Position numbers and translations under genes: made by a program. DNA of 64,000 nucleotides. Source: Bacilli bacterium. GTDB lineage: Bacteria; Bacillota_I; Bacilli_A; ML615J-28; CAG-313. Of the stretch, positions 10,073 through 18,609 are shown piece after piece. Position 1 is the stretch's first letter; every line of letters starts with the position of its first letter. The notes beneath the pieces were generated by a model. It was not told where the DNA came from and ran no database searches. It saw only the letters and a list, made by a program, of their open reading frames with translations. Location of the stretch: contig JAZNQD010000009.1 of the NCBI GenBank assembly GCA_045589955.1, positions 184,876 to 248,875 of the forward strand, read 5' to 3'.

Positions 10073-11220
10073 TAATATGTCTCTCTCGTTTTGGCTTTAC
10101 CATTTAAACCTTGCATAGCAATTTCAACCATAGCTGTTATTGAACTTAATGACATAGAAATGTGTATAGCATCGATAATATAAGTTCCTGATAAAGCATA
10201 AACCTTATTTGAAGGATCTTGTGCGTCATAATATTCAAAGTTTACTATTTGTGCAAGTCTATATGGTTGGAAGAACTGACTTTCTAGAGTCATATATGAA
10301 GAATAAGTTGACATTATGCGTTTATTTTGCTTTAAAGCATTGTAATAATTAGGATGTAAATTACCAACATCAAACGGATACCAATTTTGTCCTAATCCTT
10401 TTGCCAATTCTTTTGAAATATTGATTAAATTACTTTCTGCCACTACTTTTCTTGATGCAACTTCTTTCCATGAGTACGTTAATAAGTCAAAATATTCATC
10501 TACACCACCATAACCTTCATTTTTTAAGTTATTTGTACCTGCTTGTATTGAACCTTTAGCAGAAGTGTATCCAAATTGTTTTTGTGAAGGATTTGGTATA
10601 GGTGTTTGTACAAAAGTATAGATTTTTTCTTGTCTATTTCTAAATAAATCTGTTAAATTTTTATATAAAAGGCGTTTTTTACGGTCTAAACACCAAAACA
10701 TAGCAGAAGTTTCATTAATATAACCACGTTGAGCCATATAATTGAAAAATTGATAGATATTATTCTCACCTGCTACCCATAATTGTGAATCATTGGTAAA
10801 ATCTATATCTGATTCTAAACCGTATGCTAAAGCAATGTGTCTAAATACTTCACTAGATAAGCCATAAGCGTTATGTTCGTTTGCATGGCTATATCCATCA
10901 AAGAAATCTATTACACCTTCAATAGAAACATTTACAAAGTGTTGATTTAATTCTAATTTTTTAACATTATAGATTCTAAACGTATATTCGTCGGCAATTC
11001 CCCATTTTTTTGATACAATAGAGAATTTAATTTTGGTACCGTCTACAACTGAACGATAATCAAACCAAGAAATAGGAATAGATACTTCTAACTCACAAGT
11101 TGGTATAGGTTTCATAATAGATTCAAATATATCTGCACGTACAAAAACCACACCTTTTGCATCAAATATATTTAAGTCATCAATAAAGATATTTAAATCA
11201 TATACTTCTTGTACTAACAT
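10072..11220 (-). CDS. Baseplate hub protein (gp27/gpD-like)
   Basis: Size and position between the gp53-like and spike genes; weak motif support. Confidence 0.5.
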   Translation of the reverse strand: MLVQEVYDLNIFIDDLNIFDAKGVVFVRADIFESIMKPIPTCELEVSIPISWFDYRSVVDGTKIKFSIVSKKWGIADEYTFRIYNVKKLELNQHFVNVSIEGVIDFFDGYSHANEHNAYGLSSEVFRHIALAYGLESDIDFTNDSQLWVAGENNIYQFFNYMAQRGYINETSAMFWCLDRKKRLLYKNLTDLFRNRQEKIYTFVQTPIPNPSQKQFGYTSAKGSIQAGTNNLKNEGYGGVDEYFDLLTYSWKEVASRKVVAESNLINISKELAKGLGQNWYPFDVGNLHPNYYNALKQNKRIMSTYSSYMTLESQFFQPYRLAQIVNFEYYDAQDPSNKVYALSGTYIIDAIHISMSLSSITAMVEIAMQGLNGKAKTRETY

Positions 11221-11221
11221 A

Positions 11222-11617
11222 TTAATTCAATTCTATTGTTGTACCAATACGAGTTTCTTCTTTTGTACTGTTATTGTTATTTGAATTTTCTACAAAGTTG
11301 TTTATTTGTTCTGGCGAGTTAATAGAATAAATCCAGTTTTCATTTAATTGTGTAAATGGATCATCTAATCTATTTAATAGAAGTAACCACCACCAATATT
11401 TTTCATCACCTAAAGCAGAATGCATAGCAATTAAGTCTGGATAGTCTGCTTCATGATTAGCAACTAAATAACGCTGAACTTCATTAAAAGAATATGCTTG
11501 TTCGTTAAAGAATGAAAATAAATTAACTAAGCCGGCATTTATATCTGCTGTAGATACTTTATTATTATCTATAGTAATTTCATCAAAGAATGAATTAAAA
11601 GATGTTGTATTTGCCAT
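11222..11617 (-). CDS. Baseplate wedge gp53-like (LysM-type) protein
   Basis: DYPDLIA...LGDEKYWWWLLLLNRLDDPF pattern. Confidence 0.75.
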   Translation of the reverse strand: MANTTSFNSFFDEITIDNNKVSTADINAGLVNLFSFFNEQAYSFNEVQRYLVANHEADYPDLIAMHSALGDEKYWWWLLLLNRLDDPFTQLNENWIYSINSPEQINNFVENSNNNNSTKEETRIGTTIELN

Positions 11618-13269: not shown

Positions 13270-15627
13270 TTATGAATACATTAGGGTTTGTGCAAAATCA
13301 CCTACCGGATATACAGATTTATCAGATTGCATATAAACATTATTCTGATATACAGTCGGTTGTTGCTGATTTAGGTTATTAGCGTGTTGAATAGAAGCGT
13401 TTTGTTCTAATTCTACTACTTTCATGCCATTTAATTGAGCGATTTGTGTACTATTACGTTCTTCGGCTGATTGTACGTATGGAGTATCTAAAGGCAATGT
13501 AGTAGGACCATCACCTGCACCATTTGCAATTTTACCGGCTCCTAATTGTGCGTATTGACCATTTACCATAGAAGCAACTATACCACCACGTTGAGCATTG
13601 GCATCATATTCTACGTGTAACCATCTTGTATTACCACTTTTTTCTGCTATTGCTCTTGTAAATGGTATTTTGTGAGCTTGCATTATTTTAATTAATTGAT
13701 TTGGATTAATACCGTCAACTTGTAAATCAATTGCTTTTCCGGTTAAATGTTTTGAATTACTAGCACCGCCAACAGAAGCGTTATAATATTTATTTCTATA
13801 GGAACTTGTAATGCGAACGTTGTGTGAGCCAGCACCGTACATCTCGTTTAATGCATTTTGTAAAGGATTAACCACATTATCTCTTACTGCATTTACATTG
13901 TTTGCGATATTGTGTGGAATATAACCGTTTCTGTGAATTGATGTATTTAAAGGTACATCGCCTGGCGCATCTCCAAAGTTTTTATCTTCTTTTTTAAATG
14001 TTTGTTTTTGAGCTAAAGTATCAGCGGTTTCATCATCTTCCCCTGACCACCAATTTTTTACTTTGCCTACAAGAGTTTTTGATAATTCTACTAAACCACC
14101 ACCGGCAAATCCAATAAGTGCACCTTTAATTGCTCCCATTGGACCCATTTTACTACCAATTACTGCGCCTAAAATACCTGCTTCAAATACTAAAGAAGGT
14201 AAACCCATAATTGTATTTGGCATTCCATTTTCATCTGTACCAAAAGGATTTAATTTACTAAGGTTTTTTGATAATTCGATAATTGTACCGCCACCTAAAC
14301 CGATTGCGGCACCCATTGCAGCACCTTTAAGACCAGCAGCTTGACTTCCTAATGTAGCACCTAAAACAGCTAATCCAAAAGTAGGAGCTGGAATTCCAAA
14401 TATTGCCGTTTCAGCTTGGCCGTCTGCAGTAAATATTGTATCCCAATTAGCAACCATATCGGCAATTTTACCACCAGCTATACTTAAACCGGCACCGATT
14501 AAAGCTCCTCTAATACCAAATTTACTTCCGATAACAGCACCTGGTAAAGCATCTACTAAAATATCACTTACACCAGCAGAAGTAACATCACCTAAGCCTA
14601 AACTTCCTTCTAAGAAACCCGATAACATTTCTTTGGCGTTATCTCTAACACCGCTTAATAATCCCATTACAACAGTGCTACCTATTGTTGATAATAAACC
14701 TGTACCAACCATAGATACCATGCCAGAAATCGAAGACATTAATTTACTTATTAAACCGGGTTCTTCTTTCTGTTTTTCTTCTTGTTTTTCTTTTGGCTTT
14801 TGACCAAGTAATTCAATGATACTATCTAATTTAGCGTTTAATTCTGAGTCTTTAGATTTTTCAATAGCAGAAGCGCTTTCACTATGTTCCTTTTTAATAG
14901 AAGCATTTGTGAGTTTTTCTATTGTAAAAGATGCAATACCACCAACTAATTTATCTATACCTAAACTTTGTACTACCGCTGGATTTAATATGCCACCAGA
15001 TAATACAGAAACCGCAGTACTCTTCCAAGGACTAGATTCAGTAGTTCCTATATGGGCTTTTAATTGACCAAAAGGTGATTCTGTTCTACGTTCCTCTTCT
15101 AAGGCTTTGTCTAATTGTAAAGTACGTAATTCTCTTTCTTTTTCTTTAATCGGTAAATTTTGAAAGTCTGTTTCTAATGAAGCAATAGCCTTATATAACT
15201 GAATACGATTCTTTAATAAATTAGTTTCTTTATTTTCTTTTTCAATAGAAGAAGTACGCATGGTCTTAGGATCTTTCATTTTACCTAGCCATTCGTAATT
15301 CATAGCCTTTCTACGTGATTCTAAGGCAGCTTCTTCTTGAGCTTTTCTTAAATTACTTACATTCTTTAAGAAATCTTTTATGGTAGTATTTAATTCTTTT
15401 TGTTGGTCTGATAAGTTGAATAAAGTTTTTGTTTGTGCTGACGATTCTATGGCTTGAGCTTTACTTGAAGAAGCCATATTTGTAAGTGCAGAAGATTGTT
15501 TACGTAATACTTCTGTTTGTTTTAAATTCTGTTCTGCTAAATCTGCTACACTATCAGCTAATTTAGAAAGAGATTCATTAGCTTTAGGTTCATTTTCAGG
15601 TATTTTAATTTTTGTCGTATTAGCCAT
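13270..15627 (-). CDS. Tape measure protein with C-terminal peptidase M15 (D-Ala-D-Ala peptidase-like) domain
   Basis: Coiled-coil N-terminus, Gly/Ala-rich repeats, RITSSYR...NASVGGASNSKHLTGKAIDL...WLHVEY M15 motifs. Confidence 0.8.
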   Translation of the reverse strand: MANTTKIKIPENEPKANESLSKLADSVADLAEQNLKQTEVLRKQSSALTNMASSSKAQAIESSAQTKTLFNLSDQQKELNTTIKDFLKNVSNLRKAQEEAALESRRKAMNYEWLGKMKDPKTMRTSSIEKENKETNLLKNRIQLYKAIASLETDFQNLPIKEKERELRTLQLDKALEEERRTESPFGQLKAHIGTTESSPWKSTAVSVLSGGILNPAVVQSLGIDKLVGGIASFTIEKLTNASIKKEHSESASAIEKSKDSELNAKLDSIIELLGQKPKEKQEEKQKEEPGLISKLMSSISGMVSMVGTGLLSTIGSTVVMGLLSGVRDNAKEMLSGFLEGSLGLGDVTSAGVSDILVDALPGAVIGSKFGIRGALIGAGLSIAGGKIADMVANWDTIFTADGQAETAIFGIPAPTFGLAVLGATLGSQAAGLKGAAMGAAIGLGGGTIIELSKNLSKLNPFGTDENGMPNTIMGLPSLVFEAGILGAVIGSKMGPMGAIKGALIGFAGGGLVELSKTLVGKVKNWWSGEDDETADTLAQKQTFKKEDKNFGDAPGDVPLNTSIHRNGYIPHNIANNVNAVRDNVVNPLQNALNEMYGAGSHNVRITSSYRNKYYNASVGGASNSKHLTGKAIDLQVDGINPNQLIKIMQAHKIPFTRAIAEKSGNTRWLHVEYDANAQRGGIVASMVNGQYAQLGAGKIANGAGDGPTTLPLDTPYVQSAEERNSTQIAQLNGMKVVELEQNASIQHANNLNQQQPTVYQNNVYMQSDKSVYPVGDFAQTLMYS

Positions 15628-15809
15628 TATCCAAACTTATTCATTGCTTCTTTTTGTTCTTTTTCTAAATCAATTAGATGCTGTGCATGACGATTATGAA
15701 ACCACTCAAAATAATCCCAAGGCATAGTTACTACATCTTCATAGCCTAATTTTAAGTGATACATTAACCACCATTCGCGTTCTAAAATGTCATTTAAATC
15801 AAACAGCGG
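15627..15809 (-). CDS. Unannotated gp51-like chaperone C-terminal frame (probable frameshift extension of the upstream gene)
   Basis: Frame PLFDLNDILEREWWLMYHLKLGYEDVVTMPWDYFEWF...KFG-stop. It has no N-terminal ATG, and its TAA overlaps the tape-measure ATG (TAATG). Confidence 0.65.
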   Translation of the reverse strand, partial: PLFDLNDILEREWWLMYHLKLGYEDVVTMPWDYFEWFHNRHAQHLIDLEKEQKEAMNKFG

Positions 15810-16533
15810 AAAAAAATTCCTCTAGTGCTAAAATATATGCTCTAGAGCTCTCCTTTCCACACTTAGGACATTTTACAAGTATTTCTTCTTTTACACCCCA
15901 GATAGATTTTGTAAACCAATCTTCTATCGCAATAATATCTTCAGCTGTTACTACACCTTGTTCTGCCAACTCATACATTTCTAATAATGTTTTATCACCA
16001 GAGATTAAGCAAAGGTCTAATAGCAACAATCTCATTTGTGTATCAGTAGGATCGATATTTTTTAGTTTAATTAAGTTATCAATAGAAATATCGTCTTTTA
16101 TTATTTTATTGCGAATTTCTGTTTTGCCTAGATGTGTTAAGTCAACAGTATATTGCAAATCTTCAATATCGTCTGGAGTAGCAATTTGTAAATCACCCAT
16201 ATTTAAAGTTACTTGAATTGTATTATCGCACTCTTTATCTAAACATACAAAGTTTAATTTAATTGGATGCTTTTCATAAGTAGTAAAACGAATAAAATAC
16301 AATATATATTGTACATCAAACCAAAACAACTCTTCAAAAGTCATTTCTGGATTATCAAAGGTAACTAATTTTTTAATGAAATCTATATAATCTTGATTTG
16401 TTTTTTGTTGTTTTTGTGATAGAGATAATATAAATTTTTGTTCGATAGGTGTAATTTTTCTAACACTTGCACTAAACTGCTTTTTATATAGCATTTTACC
16501 CGGCAAGTCAATTGGTACGAATTGTTGTATCAT
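15799..16533 (-). CDS. Baseplate hub assembly/tail assembly chaperone (gp26-like)
   Basis: CxxxxC and CPKC pairs, ends LEEFFSAV; immediately upstream of the tape measure. Confidence 0.7.
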   Translation of the reverse strand: MIQQFVPIDLPGKMLYKKQFSASVRKITPIEQKFILSLSQKQQKTNQDYIDFIKKLVTFDNPEMTFEELFWFDVQYILYFIRFTTYEKHPIKLNFVCLDKECDNTIQVTLNMGDLQIATPDDIEDLQYTVDLTHLGKTEIRNKIIKDDISIDNLIKLKNIDPTDTQMRLLLLDLCLISGDKTLLEMYELAEQGVVTAEDIIAIEDWFTKSIWGVKEEILVKCPKCGKESSRAYILALEEFFSAV

Positions 16534-16547
16534 TTATTTCTCCTTTT

Positions 16548-17282
16548 TTAACCATAGATACTATCAGCGTCGTATTGTGAAGCTTCACTGCTTTTACTAA
16601 ATAATCCGCTGACTAATTTATCACCAATACTAAGCGGTGATGATACTAATTCACTTACAATAGCCTTATTCTTTAATGTTGAATCAAAAACGATTTTATC
16701 CATTTTAAATTTAGCCATTAAGCGTAATCTTTTTGGATCCTCTGTATATTCAAGCTTATATGTATCTTGATAATATGGAAAACATCCTTTTAATGTATAA
16801 TGTGCTACAGATAAAGAACTGACACCAACATTTCCTGGTCCAAAAAAATATACCTCTATATCTTTTTTATAAACTGACATTGGATTATAATATTCGCCGT
16901 CATCATCAAATATTAATTTTTTCCAGCTATCAAGATAATATTGTATTAACATACCAGACGAACAAAAGAATGTGATTGAAACATCTTGATAGTTTTGAAT
17001 ATCATCAGGTACATTACACCAACCTGTACGAACACGTCTTGAATTTGTACCAAAGTTTCTAACACCAAATACAATTTCTTCTACAATAGGTGTATAAGCA
17101 TTATACGCGTTTGAAGCAGCTCCAGTTACATTATCCCAAATACCACTTAAACTTGTCCAGCTATTATCTGTCTTTTTCTGTTTTCCATTTAAATATAATG
17201 TAGGCATAACAACTTCAAATTGATTATCGAGTTGTTCATCTGCAATGTTATCTATTTGTAATTGTGATTGAAAACGAAGCAT
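16548..17282 (-). CDS. Tail tube-fold protein (gp54-like tube initiator)
   Basis: DVSITFF...YLDSWKKLI...YKKDIEV...YTLKGCFP gp19-family pattern. Confidence 0.65.
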   Translation of the reverse strand: MLRFQSQLQIDNIADEQLDNQFEVVMPTLYLNGKQKKTDNSWTSLSGIWDNVTGAASNAYNAYTPIVEEIVFGVRNFGTNSRRVRTGWCNVPDDIQNYQDVSITFFCSSGMLIQYYLDSWKKLIFDDDGEYYNPMSVYKKDIEVYFFGPGNVGVSSLSVAHYTLKGCFPYYQDTYKLEYTEDPKRLRLMAKFKMDKIVFDSTLKNKAIVSELVSSPLSIGDKLVSGLFSKSSEASQYDADSIYG

Positions 17283-17287
17283 GTATA

Positions 17288-17899
17288 TTATCCAAATAAA
17301 GCTGTTACAGAATACGCATTGTCTGAGAAATAATCGTAATTAAATTCAATATCTACACTTACTGGTTCGGAACTACTAGGGTCAATTGAAGTAACTGTAT
17401 AACTAACTGGATAAAACCCTTTTAACCAAATAGTTCTTTTATCTAACTCTTTTCCTGATTTGGGATCTTTTATTCCACTACCAATAATGACCTGAGCTGT
17501 TCCAACATAAGCAGTTCTCGGTATTCTAGTTCCTAAGATTGGACTGTGTATAATATCACACCAGGCTTGTATAATATTTAATACACTACCTTCTAAATCT
17601 TCGGTTACAGTACATTTCCAAATACCTGATTTATCTTGTATTGTACCAGTTGTTCTTTTGTGCCCACCTAATACCAGTGTACTTTTTTTAATTTTTGTTC
17701 CAGGATATGAAAAAGATGTACAACGCAAACGTAATGTTTCTGCGCTTGCGACTTTTGTATTTCCAGAAAGTTTACCTACTACCTGTTGAGTCAATCTACT
17801 AAGTAATAAACCTGGTGTATCTGATATAATAAATTCTACTTGTGATTGCTTTAGCGGGTCTTGTAACTTACGTATTTCACTAAGTGTTTTTAATGCCAT
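17288..17899 (-). CDS. Tail tube-fold protein (gp19 family paralog)
   Basis: LRCTSFSYPG...IQAWCD...LKGFYP...DIEFNYDYF. Confidence 0.65.
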   Translation of the reverse strand: MALKTLSEIRKLQDPLKQSQVEFIISDTPGLLLSRLTQQVVGKLSGNTKVASAETLRLRCTSFSYPGTKIKKSTLVLGGHKRTTGTIQDKSGIWKCTVTEDLEGSVLNIIQAWCDIIHSPILGTRIPRTAYVGTAQVIIGSGIKDPKSGKELDKRTIWLKGFYPVSYTVTSIDPSSSEPVSVDIEFNYDYFSDNAYSVTALFG

Positions 17900-17948
17900 A
17901 GTATAAAATAAAAATGTGGGAAAATTAATTAAATAAATACTTATTAAT

Positions 17949-17954
17949 TAGAAC
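17949..17954 (-). promoter_or_regulatory. GTTCTA box upstream of the tube paralog operon
   Basis: Recurrent motif followed by an A/T run. Confidence 0.5.
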
Positions 17955-17993
17955 TGATTGGATACATAATTAAAAATGTATCCTTAATTAAAA

Positions 17994-18026
17994 ATAATGC
18001 CCTAAACATAAAGCTCAGAGCATTAT
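17994..18026 (-). terminator. Intrinsic terminator after the major tube gene
   Basis: 14-bp stem whose G-U pairs form only in the minus-strand RNA, followed by a U-run. Confidence 0.65.
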
Positions 18027-18057
18027 TATAACTACGTGAAAACAACAATATTAAAAA

Positions 18058-18609
18058 TTAGTCGTTTTCATCACCCATTAAGAAGTAGTTGTAACTTAAT
18101 GTAGTTGTAATCTCAATTGGATCAGAACTTGAAGCGTTAATTGTTGGGAATGATACTTCTGATGGGAATACGTCGAACAATCTCATATCATAACGAGTCA
18201 AGCCTTCTGGTTTTGGTTCGTATACATCAGGGTTTACTAATGCAACGTTAACATCTGCTGTATAAGATTCAAGTAAAGAGATAGTACCGTTTTTATAGTT
18301 GTGGTACATATTACACCAAACTTTAAAAGCTTCTGTAATTGAAGAATCCCAAACTTCAGTAAAGGTAACTGTCCAATCACCAGCACGAGTTTGTTTACCG
18401 GCGTAACGTCTTTCGAAGCCACCCCATTGTACAGTTGTTTTATCACCTGTAATTTTTGGTAAGCCAAATGTTTGACAACGTAATTCGAGGTTATCTGTTT
18501 TAATTAATGATGTTAATGGCGATCCAGCTTTGAAAACAATCTGGAATGTAGCCACAAACATTTTCAAAGGATCCTTAAGATTCTGTACCTTACTTAATGG
18601 ATGTAACAT
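18058..18609 (-). CDS. Major tail tube protein (T4 gp19-like)
   Basis: LRCQTFGLP...YAGKQTRAGDWTVTFTE...LFDVFPSEV...TTTLSYNYF. Confidence 0.8.
   Translation of the reverse strand: MLHPLSKVQNLKDPLKMFVATFQIVFKAGSPLTSLIKTDNLELRCQTFGLPKITGDKTTVQWGGFERRYAGKQTRAGDWTVTFTEVWDSSITEAFKVWCNMYHNYKNGTISLLESYTADVNVALVNPDVYEPKPEGLTRYDMRLFDVFPSEVSFPTINASSSDPIEITTTLSYNYFLMGDEND

What the first reader, a model, noticed from the sequence alone, without database searches (positions are those of the whole stretch)
15627..15825. Hidden gp51-like frame reachable by a +1/-2 frameshift at a U7 slippery site (G/GT-style chaperone in a T4-like tail module)
Seen: the gp26-like gene ends GAG GAA UUU UUU UCC GCU GUU UGA (A7 on the plus strand at 15810-15816). 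The +1 frame opens just before the U-run and reads PLFDLNDILEREWWLMYHLKLGYEDVVTMPWDYFEWF...KFG. It has no N-terminal AUG, and its TAA overlaps the tape-measure ATG (TAATG), which implies it is translated. An SD-like GAGGA abuts the slip site. Known: tail-assembly chaperones upstream of tape measures use programmed frameshifts (lambda G/GT -1, Mu -2), and T4 gp26 and gp51 are separate genes. Inference: a ~301-aa gp26-gp51 fusion is made alongside the 244-aa product. The ORF track misses this frame.
Basis: partly seen in the sequence, partly recalled or inferred. Interest (0 to 1): 0.65.

Follow-up and report, generated by a model that had tools for sequence, protein, structure and literature searches.

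The report
Frameshifted tail chaperone in jumbo phage
An uncultured 249-kb gut/rumen phage very probably makes a short and a long form of its tail-assembly chaperone (a relative of T4 gp26) by letting some ribosomes slip one base forward at UUU_UCC; this is a well-supported new example of a known phage trick, not a new kind of system.

Summary
A 244-aa gene of the T4 gp26 family (PF12322) at 15799-16533(-) ends GAG GAA UUU UUU UCC GCU GUU UGA. The +1 frame stays open for 60 more codons and ends in a TAA that overlaps the tape-measure ATG.

- **Conservation:** in 33 distinct related loci from rumen jumbo phages, the +1 frame has 1 stop in 57 codons x 33 loci. The other two frames have 245 and 195.
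- **No own start:** the encoded peptide is conserved with synonymous changes upstream of any start codon. No start codon is conserved, and one locus has none.
- **Shift site:** the invariant core is UUU_UC, not U7. Six loci read UUC_UUU_UCC, which argues for a +1 ribosomal slip rather than a -2 slip or transcriptional slippage.
- **Slow A-site codon:** UCC makes up 2-3% of Ser codons. No tRNA-Ser(GGA) was found in the phage contig or the rest of the bin.
- **Other lineages:** three more distant lineages keep the +1 arrangement (UUU_UGG, CUU_UGG, UUU_CCC). Others encode the domain as a separate gene.
- **T4 comparison:** T4 gp51 is a gp26-like domain plus a C-terminal extension. "gp51-like" therefore holds for the architecture; sequence homology of the extension is unproven.

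This is a new member of the G/GT chaperone-frameshift class. No expression data could be obtained.

The parts
15799..16533 (-). Short chaperone gene (TAC-N), 244 aa, T4 gp26 / PF12322 family, with a zinc-ribbon CPKCG motif and the C-terminal LEEFFSAV*
   Evidence: PF12322 at 7e-12, 45.9 bits, cut-off 24.5. phrog_150 'baseplate hub'. hhalign to T4 gp26 gives 95.8% probability. The AF2 model has pLDDT 91.6 and matches BFVD 'baseplate hub subunit / hub assembly protein' models at E down to 4e-11. It is the only PF12322 gene on the 249-kb phage contig.
15818..15822 (-). SD-like GAGGA, 4 nt upstream of the slipping UUU codon; a possible 5' stimulator
   Evidence: G at the Glu wobble position occurs in 24/33 loci and GAC in 24/33. 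The background shares are 14-16% GAG and 16% GAC. It is not invariant, since GAAGAC, GACGAC and GAAGCC variants exist.
15808..15816 (-). Shift site UUU_UUU_UCC. The invariant core is UUU_UC (15809-15813). tRNA-Phe in the P site re-pairs from UUU (15811-15813) to UUU (15810-12), while the rare UCC codon sits in the A site.
   Evidence: The second Phe codon is TTT in 33/33 loci; the first is TTC in 6/33. The Ser codon is TCC in 31/33 although TCC is 2-2.7% of Ser codons. This is the only credible in-frame TTT_TCC in the window. No tRNA-Ser(GGA) was found in the contig or the bin.
15799..15801 (-). Frame-0 stop (UGA), two codons after the Ser codon
   Evidence: Frame 0 ends two codons (three in one locus, L010) after the Ser codon in all 33 loci. 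All 120 homologous proteins end ..[FY]FS plus 2-3 residues.
15630..15809 (-). The +1-frame extension, 60 codons (PLFDLNDILEREWWLMYHLKLGYEDVVTMPWDYFEWFHNRHAQHLIDLEKEQKEAMNKFG). It forms the C-terminal domain of the long isoform (TAC-NC, 301 aa).
   Evidence: The peptide is conserved in 33 loci (alignment A2). Codon-position entropies fit coding in this frame, including codons 6-17, which lie upstream of the window's ATG. AF2 predicts a three-helix domain with pLDDT 79. The profile search finds only short ORFs with ragged starts.
15627..15629 (-). Stop (UAA) of the +1 frame, overlapping the tape-measure ATG (TAATG)
15762..15764 (-). Internal AUG (codon 18 of the hidden frame). It is the start of the 45-aa ORF that gene callers report; it is not conserved.
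   Evidence: This position is Met in 18/33 loci and Ile or Val in the rest. The first canonical start falls at codon 4, 7, 11, 17, 18, 23 or 28, and L012 has none.
13270..15627 (-). Tape measure protein, 785 aa, with a C-terminal M15 peptidase domain
   Evidence: PF08291 at 1.1e-12 and phrog_894. Its size and position are those of a tape measure.
16548..18609 (-). Three tail-tube-like genes directly upstream (244, 203 and 183 aa)
   Evidence: phrog_45 / phrog_3629 / phrog_4542 'tail tube' for the 244-aa and 183-aa proteins. The 203-aa protein has no hit.

Best explanation
The 244-aa gp26-family protein is this contractile-tailed jumbo phage's tail assembly chaperone. It sits between the tail tube genes and the tape measure gene.

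Most ribosomes terminate at the UGA and make the short form. A minority slip +1 when peptidyl-tRNA-Phe(GAA) occupies the second UUU of GAG_GAA_UUU_UUU_UCC and the A site holds the rare, slowly decoded UCC. The tRNA re-pairs with the overlapping UUU, CCG is read next, and 60 more residues are added. This gives a 301-aa long form (...LALEEFF-PLFDLNDILER...KFG) that ends at the tape-measure start codon.

By analogy with lambda G/GT and with T4 gp26/gp51, the shared N-domain would coat the tape measure. The small helical C-domain of the rare long form would recruit the tube or hub.

- **Shown here:** the anatomy, its conservation, the +1 offset, the lack of a conserved start, and the rarity of UCC.
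- **Inferred:** ribosomal (rather than transcriptional) slippage, stimulation by the upstream GAGGA, the ratio of the two products, and their functions.
For: - **Family.** The protein belongs to PF12322, is related to T4 gp26 and has a matching fold.
- **Gene order.** The window reads tube, tube, tube, gp26-like, extension, tape measure, hub/spike, gp25-like, gp6-like. Smaller relatives read sheath, tube, gp26-like, small ORF, tape measure.
- **Short-form ends.** 120 homologs of 238-257 aa all end ..[FY]FS plus 2-3 residues. None is fused in frame.
- **Open frame.** In 33 distinct loci the +1 frame has 1 stop per 57x33 codons, against 245 and 195 in the other frames. The peptide is conserved through synonymous changes (CGC/AGA/CGA for Arg; TTA/CTC/CTA for Leu) upstream of any start. 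No start is conserved, and L012 has none.
- **Slip core.** TTT_TC is invariant. TCC occurs in 31/33 loci against a 2-3% background, and GAG and GAC are enriched upstream.
- **tRNAs.** The phage contig carries tRNA-Phe(GAA), Pro(UGG), Ser(UGA) and Ser(GCU). No Ser(GGA) was found anywhere in the bin.
- **Independent lineages.** The same +1 offset occurs at GAA/GCA_UUU_UUU_UGG (L056, L060), UUU_CUU_UGG (L059) and UUU_UUU_CCC (L063).
- **Literature.** UUU_Ynn is known to be especially prone to +1 shifts in bacteria. CUU_U and UUU_U are the RF2 shift sites. Tail chaperone frameshifts are known in the -1, -2 and +1 directions (PMC5009743).
- **Single gene.** There is only one PF12322 gene on the phage contig, so no gp51-type second gene can supply the long form.
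Against: - There is no expression evidence of any kind.
- No conserved downstream RNA structure was found and there is no Rfam hit. Efficiency may therefore be low and rests on weak stimulators.
- GAGGA is absent in about a quarter of the loci, and its 4-5 nt spacing differs from the 3 nt of prfB.
- The FF motif is conserved across the whole gp26 family, including T4 (KEFFELL*, TTC TTT GAG, no shift). Part of the T-run conservation is therefore protein-level.
- TCC is also constrained by the conserved Pro (CCG) in the +1 frame.
- In distant lineages the same domain is a separate gene with its own ATG (L055, L058, L061, L062). The domain can therefore work unfused.
- The host assignment of the bin is uncertain and the bin is 95% complete, so absence of tRNA-Ser(GGA) is not proven.
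Confidence: 0.82

Rival explanations
1. Transcriptional slippage. The RNA polymerase drops one U on the T7 tract (or adds two). Ordinary translation of the edited mRNA then gives the same 301-aa protein.
For: The window and 27/33 relatives carry an uninterrupted T7 run. Homopolymer slippage is an established route to frameshifted products (PMC5009743). The product would be identical to that of a +1 ribosomal shift, so sequence alone cannot fully separate the two.
Against: Six of 33 loci have TTC TTT TCC, leaving only four consecutive T, yet they keep the +1 frame and the peptide. L059 has TTT CTT TGG. Such tracts are, to my knowledge, too short for efficient polymerase slippage. The strong preference for the rare UCC codon and the upstream GAGGA are features of a translational mechanism. 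The window has 41 other A/T runs of 7 or more, so a T7 run is not special here.
Confidence: 0.08
2. Independent initiation. The hidden frame is a separate small gene translated from the internal AUG (45 aa), the CUG, or another non-canonical start. Translation might be coupled to termination of the upstream gene.
For: The window has an AUG at codon 18 and a GAGGA upstream. In distant lineages the homologous domain clearly has its own ATG: L055 and L058 overlap the upstream gene in +1, and L061 and L062 use TAATG in +2. Gene callers report it as small ORFs.
Against: The AUG is replaced by Ile or Val in 15/33 loci. The first canonical start is scattered over codons 4-28 or is absent (L012). Residues upstream of the AUG (D9, I10, E12, W16, L17) are invariant or nearly so and show synonymous variation. 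GAGGA lies 8+ nt from CCG/CUG, where no start-like codon is conserved (CTG, CTT, CGA, TCG, CAT and others). The +1 offset and the distance of the frame-0 stop from the slip site are fixed.
Confidence: 0.05
3. A -2 ribosomal frameshift on the U7 run, as reported for phage Mu. The product would have one extra Phe (..EEFFF-PLF..).
For: U7 allows a -2 re-pairing of tRNA-Phe in the window. A -2 shift reaches the same frame. Mu uses -2 (PMC5009743).
Against: In the six UUC_UUU_UCC loci, a -2 move would place tRNA-Phe on UCU, whereas a +1 move gives a perfect UUU. L059 (UUU_CUU_UGG) and L063 (UUU_UUU_CCC) also fit +1.
Confidence: 0.03
4. There is no functional extension. The open +1 frame is a by-product of composition or an assembly/indel artefact, and only the 244-aa protein matters.
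For: No protein or RNA data exist. The extension has no Pfam or PHROG match.
Against: The frame stays open and the peptide is conserved in 33 independent assemblies, with 40-77% identity to the window's peptide. Homologs are found across phages with GC from 29 to 58%. The same offset recurs everywhere, so a sequencing error is excluded.
Confidence: 0.02

Closest known systems
Lambda gpG/gpGT and the conserved tail-assembly-chaperone frameshift of long-tailed phages (Levin 1993; Xu, Hendrix & Duda 2004, 2013, 2014; reviewed in PMC5009743)
   Same: Two overlapping ORFs lie immediately upstream of the tape measure and downstream of the tube gene. The second ORF has no start of its own and is reached by a slip a few codons before the stop of the first, giving a short form and a rare long form. 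The direction is known to vary among phages (-1, -2, +1).
   Different: The direction here is +1 at UUU_UCC rather than -1 at G_GGA_AAG. The protein family is PF12322 (gp26-like, with a zinc ribbon) and has no detectable similarity to gpG. No products or ratios have been measured here.
T4 gp26 and gp51 ('hub assembly chaperones', PMC3004832), identified as the TACs of T4-like phages by Vladimirov, Gautam & Davidson 2022 (Virology 566:9). That paper was not readable here; it is summarised in PMC10274946 and PMC12846349.
   Same: The N-domain family is the same: T4 gp26 residues 1-206 and gp51 residues 1-201 both match PF12322, as does the window protein. The logic of a short form plus a long form with a ~50-60 aa C-terminal extension is the same. 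The EFF motif at the C-terminus of the short form is shared.
   Different: T4 uses two separate, divergently transcribed genes and no frameshift. The window phage has one gene plus a +1 frameshift. Sequence similarity between the two extensions is not significant.
RF2 (prfB) +1 frameshift and UUU_Y-type +1 sites (YopN-TyeA; influenza PA-X UCC_UUU_CGU) as reviewed in PMC5009743
   Same: [quoted passage not shown] One distant lineage even uses CUU_U (L059).
   Different: The slow codon is a rare sense codon (UCC), not a stop. The SD-like element is 4-5 nt rather than 3 nt upstream and is not invariant. No autoregulatory role is implied.
Listeria phage PSA, A118 and A500 +1 frameshifts in capsid and tail genes (CCC_UGA; ACA_CCC_UCC_GAA), PMC5009743
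   Same: These are +1 shifts in structural genes of phages with low-GC hosts, relying on rare codons.
   Different: The shift codon (CCC) and the genes (capsid, tail shaft) are different. Those products are virion components.
Vandenendeviridae/Andersonviridae TAC locus with a proposed -1 shift at GTTTTT (Pseudomonas phage Adele, PMC12846349)
   Same: It is a myophage with a triplicated tube locus, followed by TAC-N with a poly-T motif near its 3' end, an unannotated downstream frame kept open in all genomes, and then the tape measure. The argument there is also purely comparative.
   Different: The reported direction is -1. Whether that TAC-N belongs to PF12322 was not tested here.

Membership tests
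G/GT-type tail assembly chaperone pair with programmed frameshift | Located between the major tail/tube gene(s) and the tape measure gene | tested here: met
   Tube-like genes lie at 16548-18609, the chaperone at 15799-16533 and the tape measure at 13270-15627. Relatives have the same order, with a sheath gene upstream.
G/GT-type tail assembly chaperone pair with programmed frameshift | The second ORF overlaps the 3' end of the first in another frame, lacks its own conserved start and is conserved as protein | tested here: met
   The offset is +1 in 33/33 loci. The +1 frame has 1 stop against 245 and 195 in the other frames. No start is conserved.
G/GT-type tail assembly chaperone pair with programmed frameshift | A conserved slippery sequence inside the overlap | tested here: met
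   TTT_TC is invariant. 27/33 loci read TTT TTT TCN (26 of them TCC) and 6/33 read TTC TTT TCN.
G/GT-type tail assembly chaperone pair with programmed frameshift | Two protein products in a fixed ratio; both are needed for tail assembly and both are absent from virions | not testable with these tools
PF12322 T4_baseplate (T4 gp26/gp51 family) | Pfam match above the gathering threshold over the whole domain | tested here: met
   45.9 bits against a cut-off of 24.5; model positions 19-218 of 219. The T4 gp26 and gp51 controls score 215.6 and 177.5 bits.
PF12322 T4_baseplate (T4 gp26/gp51 family) | Fold shared with annotated gp26/gp51-like proteins | tested here: met
   The AF2 model (pLDDT 91.6) matches 54 BFVD models at E<=1e-3, annotated as baseplate hub subunit or hub assembly protein, with TM up to 0.72. 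No solved structure matches.
gp51 C-terminal extension (listed as PF28602 in precomputed annotations of gp51 homologs) | Sequence or profile similarity of the +1 extension to the gp51 C-terminal ~48 aa | tested here: inconclusive
   hhalign of A2 and A3 against a 29-member gp51 alignment gave E 0.016-0.12 and probability 0.5-2.8%. The best local alignment does fall in gp51 221-240. An HMM search of the T4 genome found nothing. PF28602 is not in the local Pfam copy.
RF2 (prfB)-type +1 frameshift | YUU_U shift codon | tested here: met
   UUU_U in this clade and CUU_U in L059.
RF2 (prfB)-type +1 frameshift | In-frame stop codon in the A site at the shift | tested here: not met
   The A-site codon is the sense codon UCC. 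The stop follows two codons after it.
RF2 (prfB)-type +1 frameshift | SD sequence 3 nt upstream of the shift codon | tested here: inconclusive
   GAGGA lies 4 nt upstream of the second UUU and occurs in about 24/33 loci.
Programmed transcriptional slippage | A long homopolymer tract conserved in all members that use the mechanism | tested here: not met
   T7 is interrupted (only T4 remains) in 6/33 loci, and distant +1 lineages have TTT CTT T.

The most novel reading that the evidence does not exclude
The C-terminal Phe-Phe of gp26-family chaperones may be an ancient +1 shift site (YUU_Y) that has been kept in several deeply diverged lineages of contractile-tailed phages. The hidden three-helix domain would then be the homolog of the T4 gp51 C-terminal extension. 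On this reading, T4's two-gene solution and the stand-alone small genes of other lineages are derived states of one ancestral frameshifting gene. This would make the gp26 family a natural series in which the same long isoform is produced in three different ways.
Probability: 0.35. Interest if true: 0.5.

Novelty: new member of a known kind. Interest (0 to 1): 0.38.

Why it matters
- **Annotation.** The finding corrects the annotation of a whole clade of uncultured ~220-260 kb rumen/gut jumbo phages. Gene callers give a 244-aa "baseplate hub" plus a ragged 30-77 aa ORF, where there should be a TAC-N/TAC-NC pair.
- **Link to T4.** It ties the T4 gp26/gp51 chaperone family to the classical G/GT frameshift logic, which T4 itself was long said to lack.
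- **Recoding signal.** It gives a clean natural example of a +1 shift at UUU_UCC that seems to depend on a sense codon without a cognate tRNA. This is useful for frameshift predictors, which are mostly tuned to -1 heptamers.

It does not reveal a new kind of system.

Tried and rejected
- **Cultured phages.** blastn and tblastn of the region, of the gp26-like protein and of the hidden peptide against 50,697 phage records found nothing. The clade is uncultured.
- **Family libraries.** Pfam and PHROG scans of the hidden peptide, alone and as 31 members, gave nothing credible.
- **Downstream RNA stimulator.** Single-sequence folds of 33 loci have z-scores mostly between -2.3 and +1.3. RNAalifold gives -0.47 kcal/mol and essentially no consensus pairs. 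The window fold has z -0.26, and Rfam has no hit. A conserved pseudoknot or hairpin is rejected.
- **Solved structures.** The PDB fold search with the gp26-like model found no match at E<=1e-3. The BFVD search with the extension model found nothing significant.
- **In-frame fusions.** None were found among 120 close homologs. None were found among 40 profile hits in 1.84 billion representatives, apart from one 2845-aa outlier at E 7e-4 that was not followed up.
- **Homology to the gp51 extension.** hhalign against single sequences and against a gp51 family alignment was not significant, and an HMM search of the whole T4 genome found nothing.
- **Key paper.** Vladimirov et al. 2022 is not held in the library.
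- **"Positional" gp51 likeness.** This was rejected because T4 genes 26 and 51 are divergent, not tandem.


Full report
**Observation.** On the minus strand, ORF 15799..16533 (244 aa) ends CTA GAG GAA TTT TTT TCC GCT GTT TGA. The T7 run is at 15810-15816.

The +1 frame is closed by a TAG at 15822-15824. It then reads RNFFPLFDLNDILEREWWLMYHLKLGYEDVVTMPWDYFEWFHNRHAQHLIDLEKEQKEAMNKFG. Its TAA (15627-15629) shares its last A with the ATG of the 785-aa ORF 13270..15627.

The ORF list shows only a 45-aa piece of this frame, starting at the internal ATG (15762-15764). A slip at the second Phe codon gives 241 + 60 = 301 aa.

**What the genes are.**
- The 244-aa protein matches Pfam PF12322 (T4_baseplate) at 45.9 bits against a cut-off of 24.5, over model positions 19-218 of 219. 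It also matches phrog_150 'baseplate hub'.
- A profile of the protein and its relatives aligns to T4 gp26 with 95.8% probability.
- Its AlphaFold model (pLDDT 91.6) matches 54 predicted viral structures named baseplate hub subunit or hub assembly protein. It matches no solved structure.
- The 785-aa protein has the size and place of a tape measure and carries an M15 peptidase domain.
- Upstream lie three tube-like genes. Downstream lie hub, spike, gp25-like and gp6-like genes.
- The window lies on contig C9, which is 249,415 bp with 30.5% GC and 20 tRNA genes. This is a jumbo phage genome that has been binned with a 2-Mb MAG.

The gp26-like gene therefore occupies the slot of a tail assembly chaperone.

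**Conservation.** A search of 5.8 billion proteins with the hypothetical fusion found 143 hits, of which the best 120 are listed. These are 238-257 aa long and cover only the first 80% of the query. All end ..LE[DE][FY]FS plus two or three residues, and none is fused in frame.

Scans of viral and metagenome contigs gave 33 distinct loci with enough downstream sequence. Most come from rumen-type metagenomes and several lie on 220-263 kb contigs.

- In every locus the frame one base forward is open from the T-run for 56-66 codons and ends at or near the tape-measure start.
- Over 57 codons x 33 loci, the +1 frame has 1 stop (a natural end). Frame 0 has 245 and frame +2 has 195.
- The peptide is conserved with 40-77% identity to the window. 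F2, E12, W16, L17, L21, P32 and W38 are invariant.
- The stretch between the frame-0 stop and the window's ATG (codons 6-17) varies most at third codon positions. Arg is CGC, AGA or CGA, and Leu is TTA, CTC or CTA.
- The ATG is not conserved: 15 loci have Ile or Val there. The first canonical start falls at codon 4, 7, 11, 17, 18, 23 or 28, and L012 has none in 57 codons.
- A profile search of 1.84 billion representatives found 40 hits. All but one outlier are short ORFs that begin at profile positions 1 to 31, which is what gene callers produce when there is no real start.

**The shift site.** The second Phe codon is TTT in 33/33 loci and is followed by TC in 33/33. The first Phe codon is TTC in 6 loci, so U7 is not required and the invariant core is UUU_UC.

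A +1 move of tRNA-Phe from UUU to the overlapping UUU works in every locus. A -2 move would land on UCU in the six TTC loci, and four U's are too few for polymerase slippage.

- The Ser codon is TCC in 31/33 loci. TCC is only 2.0% of Ser codons in these genes and 2.7% (1.7 per thousand codons) in the window's long ORFs.
- The only credible in-frame TTT_TCC in the window is this one.
- ARAGORN finds tRNA-Phe(GAA), Pro(UGG), Ser(UGA) and Ser(GCU) on the phage contig. It finds no Ser(GGA) among the 81 tRNAs of the bin. UCC is therefore probably decoded slowly.
- The two codons before the site are GAG and GAC/GAA far more often than codon usage predicts: 24/33 each, against 14-16% background. Together they form an SD-like GAGGA four nucleotides before the slipping codon. 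A quarter of the loci lack it.
- No conserved RNA structure follows the site, and Rfam has nothing.

These features match what the Atkins et al. review reports. [quoted passage not shown]

**Distant relatives.** The profile hits led to other lineages, each with the small ORF directly after a PF12322 gene and before a large tape-measure-like gene.

| Loci | GC | Arrangement |
|---|---|---|
| L056, L060 | 48-49% | ..GCA/GAA TTT TTT TGG CCT.. stop; extension (FFGLS...) in +1; only an upstream GTG as a 'start' |
| L059 | 58% | ACG TTT CTT TGG; extension in +1 |
| L063 | 31% | GGC TTT TTT CCC; extension in +1 |
| L055, L058 | 29-33% | own ATG; 41-nt overlap in +1 |
| L061, L062 | 31-36% | own ATG at a TAATG junction; +2 |

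Smaller phages show the order sheath, tube, gp26-like, small ORF, tape measure. The domain is therefore expressed by a +1 shift in at least four lineages and as a separate small protein in others.

**Relation to T4.**
- T4 gp26 (208 aa) matches PF12322 over residues 1-206. T4 gp51 (249 aa) matches over 1-201, leaving a ~48-aa extension.
- Leiman et al. list both proteins as hub assembly chaperones (PMC3004832).
- Vladimirov, Gautam and Davidson (2022) identified the TACs of T4-like phages. As summarised by others, they found that these phages carry a short gene and a longer fused gene instead of a frameshift (PMC10274946; PMC12846349). I could not read that paper.
- T4 genes 26 and 51 are divergent neighbours. 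Gene 26 ends AAA GAG TTC TTT GAG TTA CTA TAA with no hidden frame.
- The window phage has a single PF12322 gene on its contig, so a frameshift is the only visible source of a long form.
- Whether the hidden domain is homologous to the gp51 extension remains open. hhalign against a 29-member gp51 alignment puts its best local alignment in gp51 221-240, but at 0.5-2.8% probability. An HMM search of the T4 genome is empty. The extension model is a three-helix bundle (pLDDT 79) without significant structural matches.

**Verdict.** This is a G/GT-style chaperone pair built on the gp26 family, with the long form made by a +1 ribosomal shift at UUU_UCC.

I put 0.82 on that mechanism. The rivals get 0.08 (transcriptional slippage), 0.05 (independent initiation), 0.03 (-2 shift) and 0.02 (no function).

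The class is known: tail chaperone frameshifts, including +1 ones, and gp26/gp51 as TACs. I therefore rate it a new member of a known kind, of moderate interest. Its main value is for annotating jumbo phages, for +1 frameshift prediction, and for the evolutionary link between T4's two-gene solution and the frameshifting solution.

Noticed in passing
whole contig: window = G000:C9:184876-248875: Contig C9 is 249,415 bp with 30.5% GC and carries a cluster of 20 tRNA genes at about 58-70 kb. It looks like a complete or near-complete jumbo phage genome binned into a 2.03-Mb, 73-contig MAG rather than a prophage. Relatives lie on 220-263 kb viral contigs.
   Followed up: partly
G000:C12:39727-39933 (locus L065): A second, weak PF12322 match (21.6 bits, model positions 49-115) lies inside a 433-aa open frame on another contig of the bin. 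This may be another phage or prophage with a gp26-like gene.
   Followed up: no
window 15630-15641 and alignments A2/A3: The extension ends in a conserved aromatic tail, (K/H/x)F(G/I)-stop, right at the tape-measure start. The tail is kept even in distant lineages (..KFI, ..HFI, ..ESFI, ..RAFSR). It may be a docking motif.
   Followed up: no
L054 (T4 NC_000866) 10803-11429(-): T4 gp26 ends ..GLKEFFELL*, so the Glu-Phe-Phe motif used as the slip site in the window clade is conserved across the whole family at the protein level. T4 also makes a second product (26') from gene 26 by internal initiation.
   Followed up: partly
L055:760-800 and L058:800-845: In the lineage with its own ATG, the 41-nt overlap is dual-coding. 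The frame-0 tail (VPF..(Y/F)P.G.EL.R.FG..) and the +1 frame are both conserved. Shift-prone strings (CCC_UUU_CGA; CUU_UUU_CCG) lie just upstream of the ATG, so a frameshift product cannot be excluded there either.
   Followed up: partly
window 16548-18609(-): Three consecutive tail-tube-like genes precede the chaperone. This recalls the triplicated tube locus described for Vandenendeviridae (PMC12846349). The middle one (17288-17899) has no PHROG hit.
   Followed up: no
precomputed annotation of gp51 homologs: gp51-family proteins carry a second Pfam family, PF28602, that is absent from the local Pfam copy. It is probably the model of the gp51 C-terminal extension and would be the right test for the hidden domain.
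   Followed up: no
BFVD hits: Tenacibaculum phage pT24 has a 306-aa gp26-like protein (A0A1B4XWT4). It also has a 73-aa uncharacterised protein with a neighbouring accession (A0A1B4XWS3) that is the fifth-ranked, non-significant structural match of the extension model. This is a possible cultured example of the same pair.
   Followed up: no
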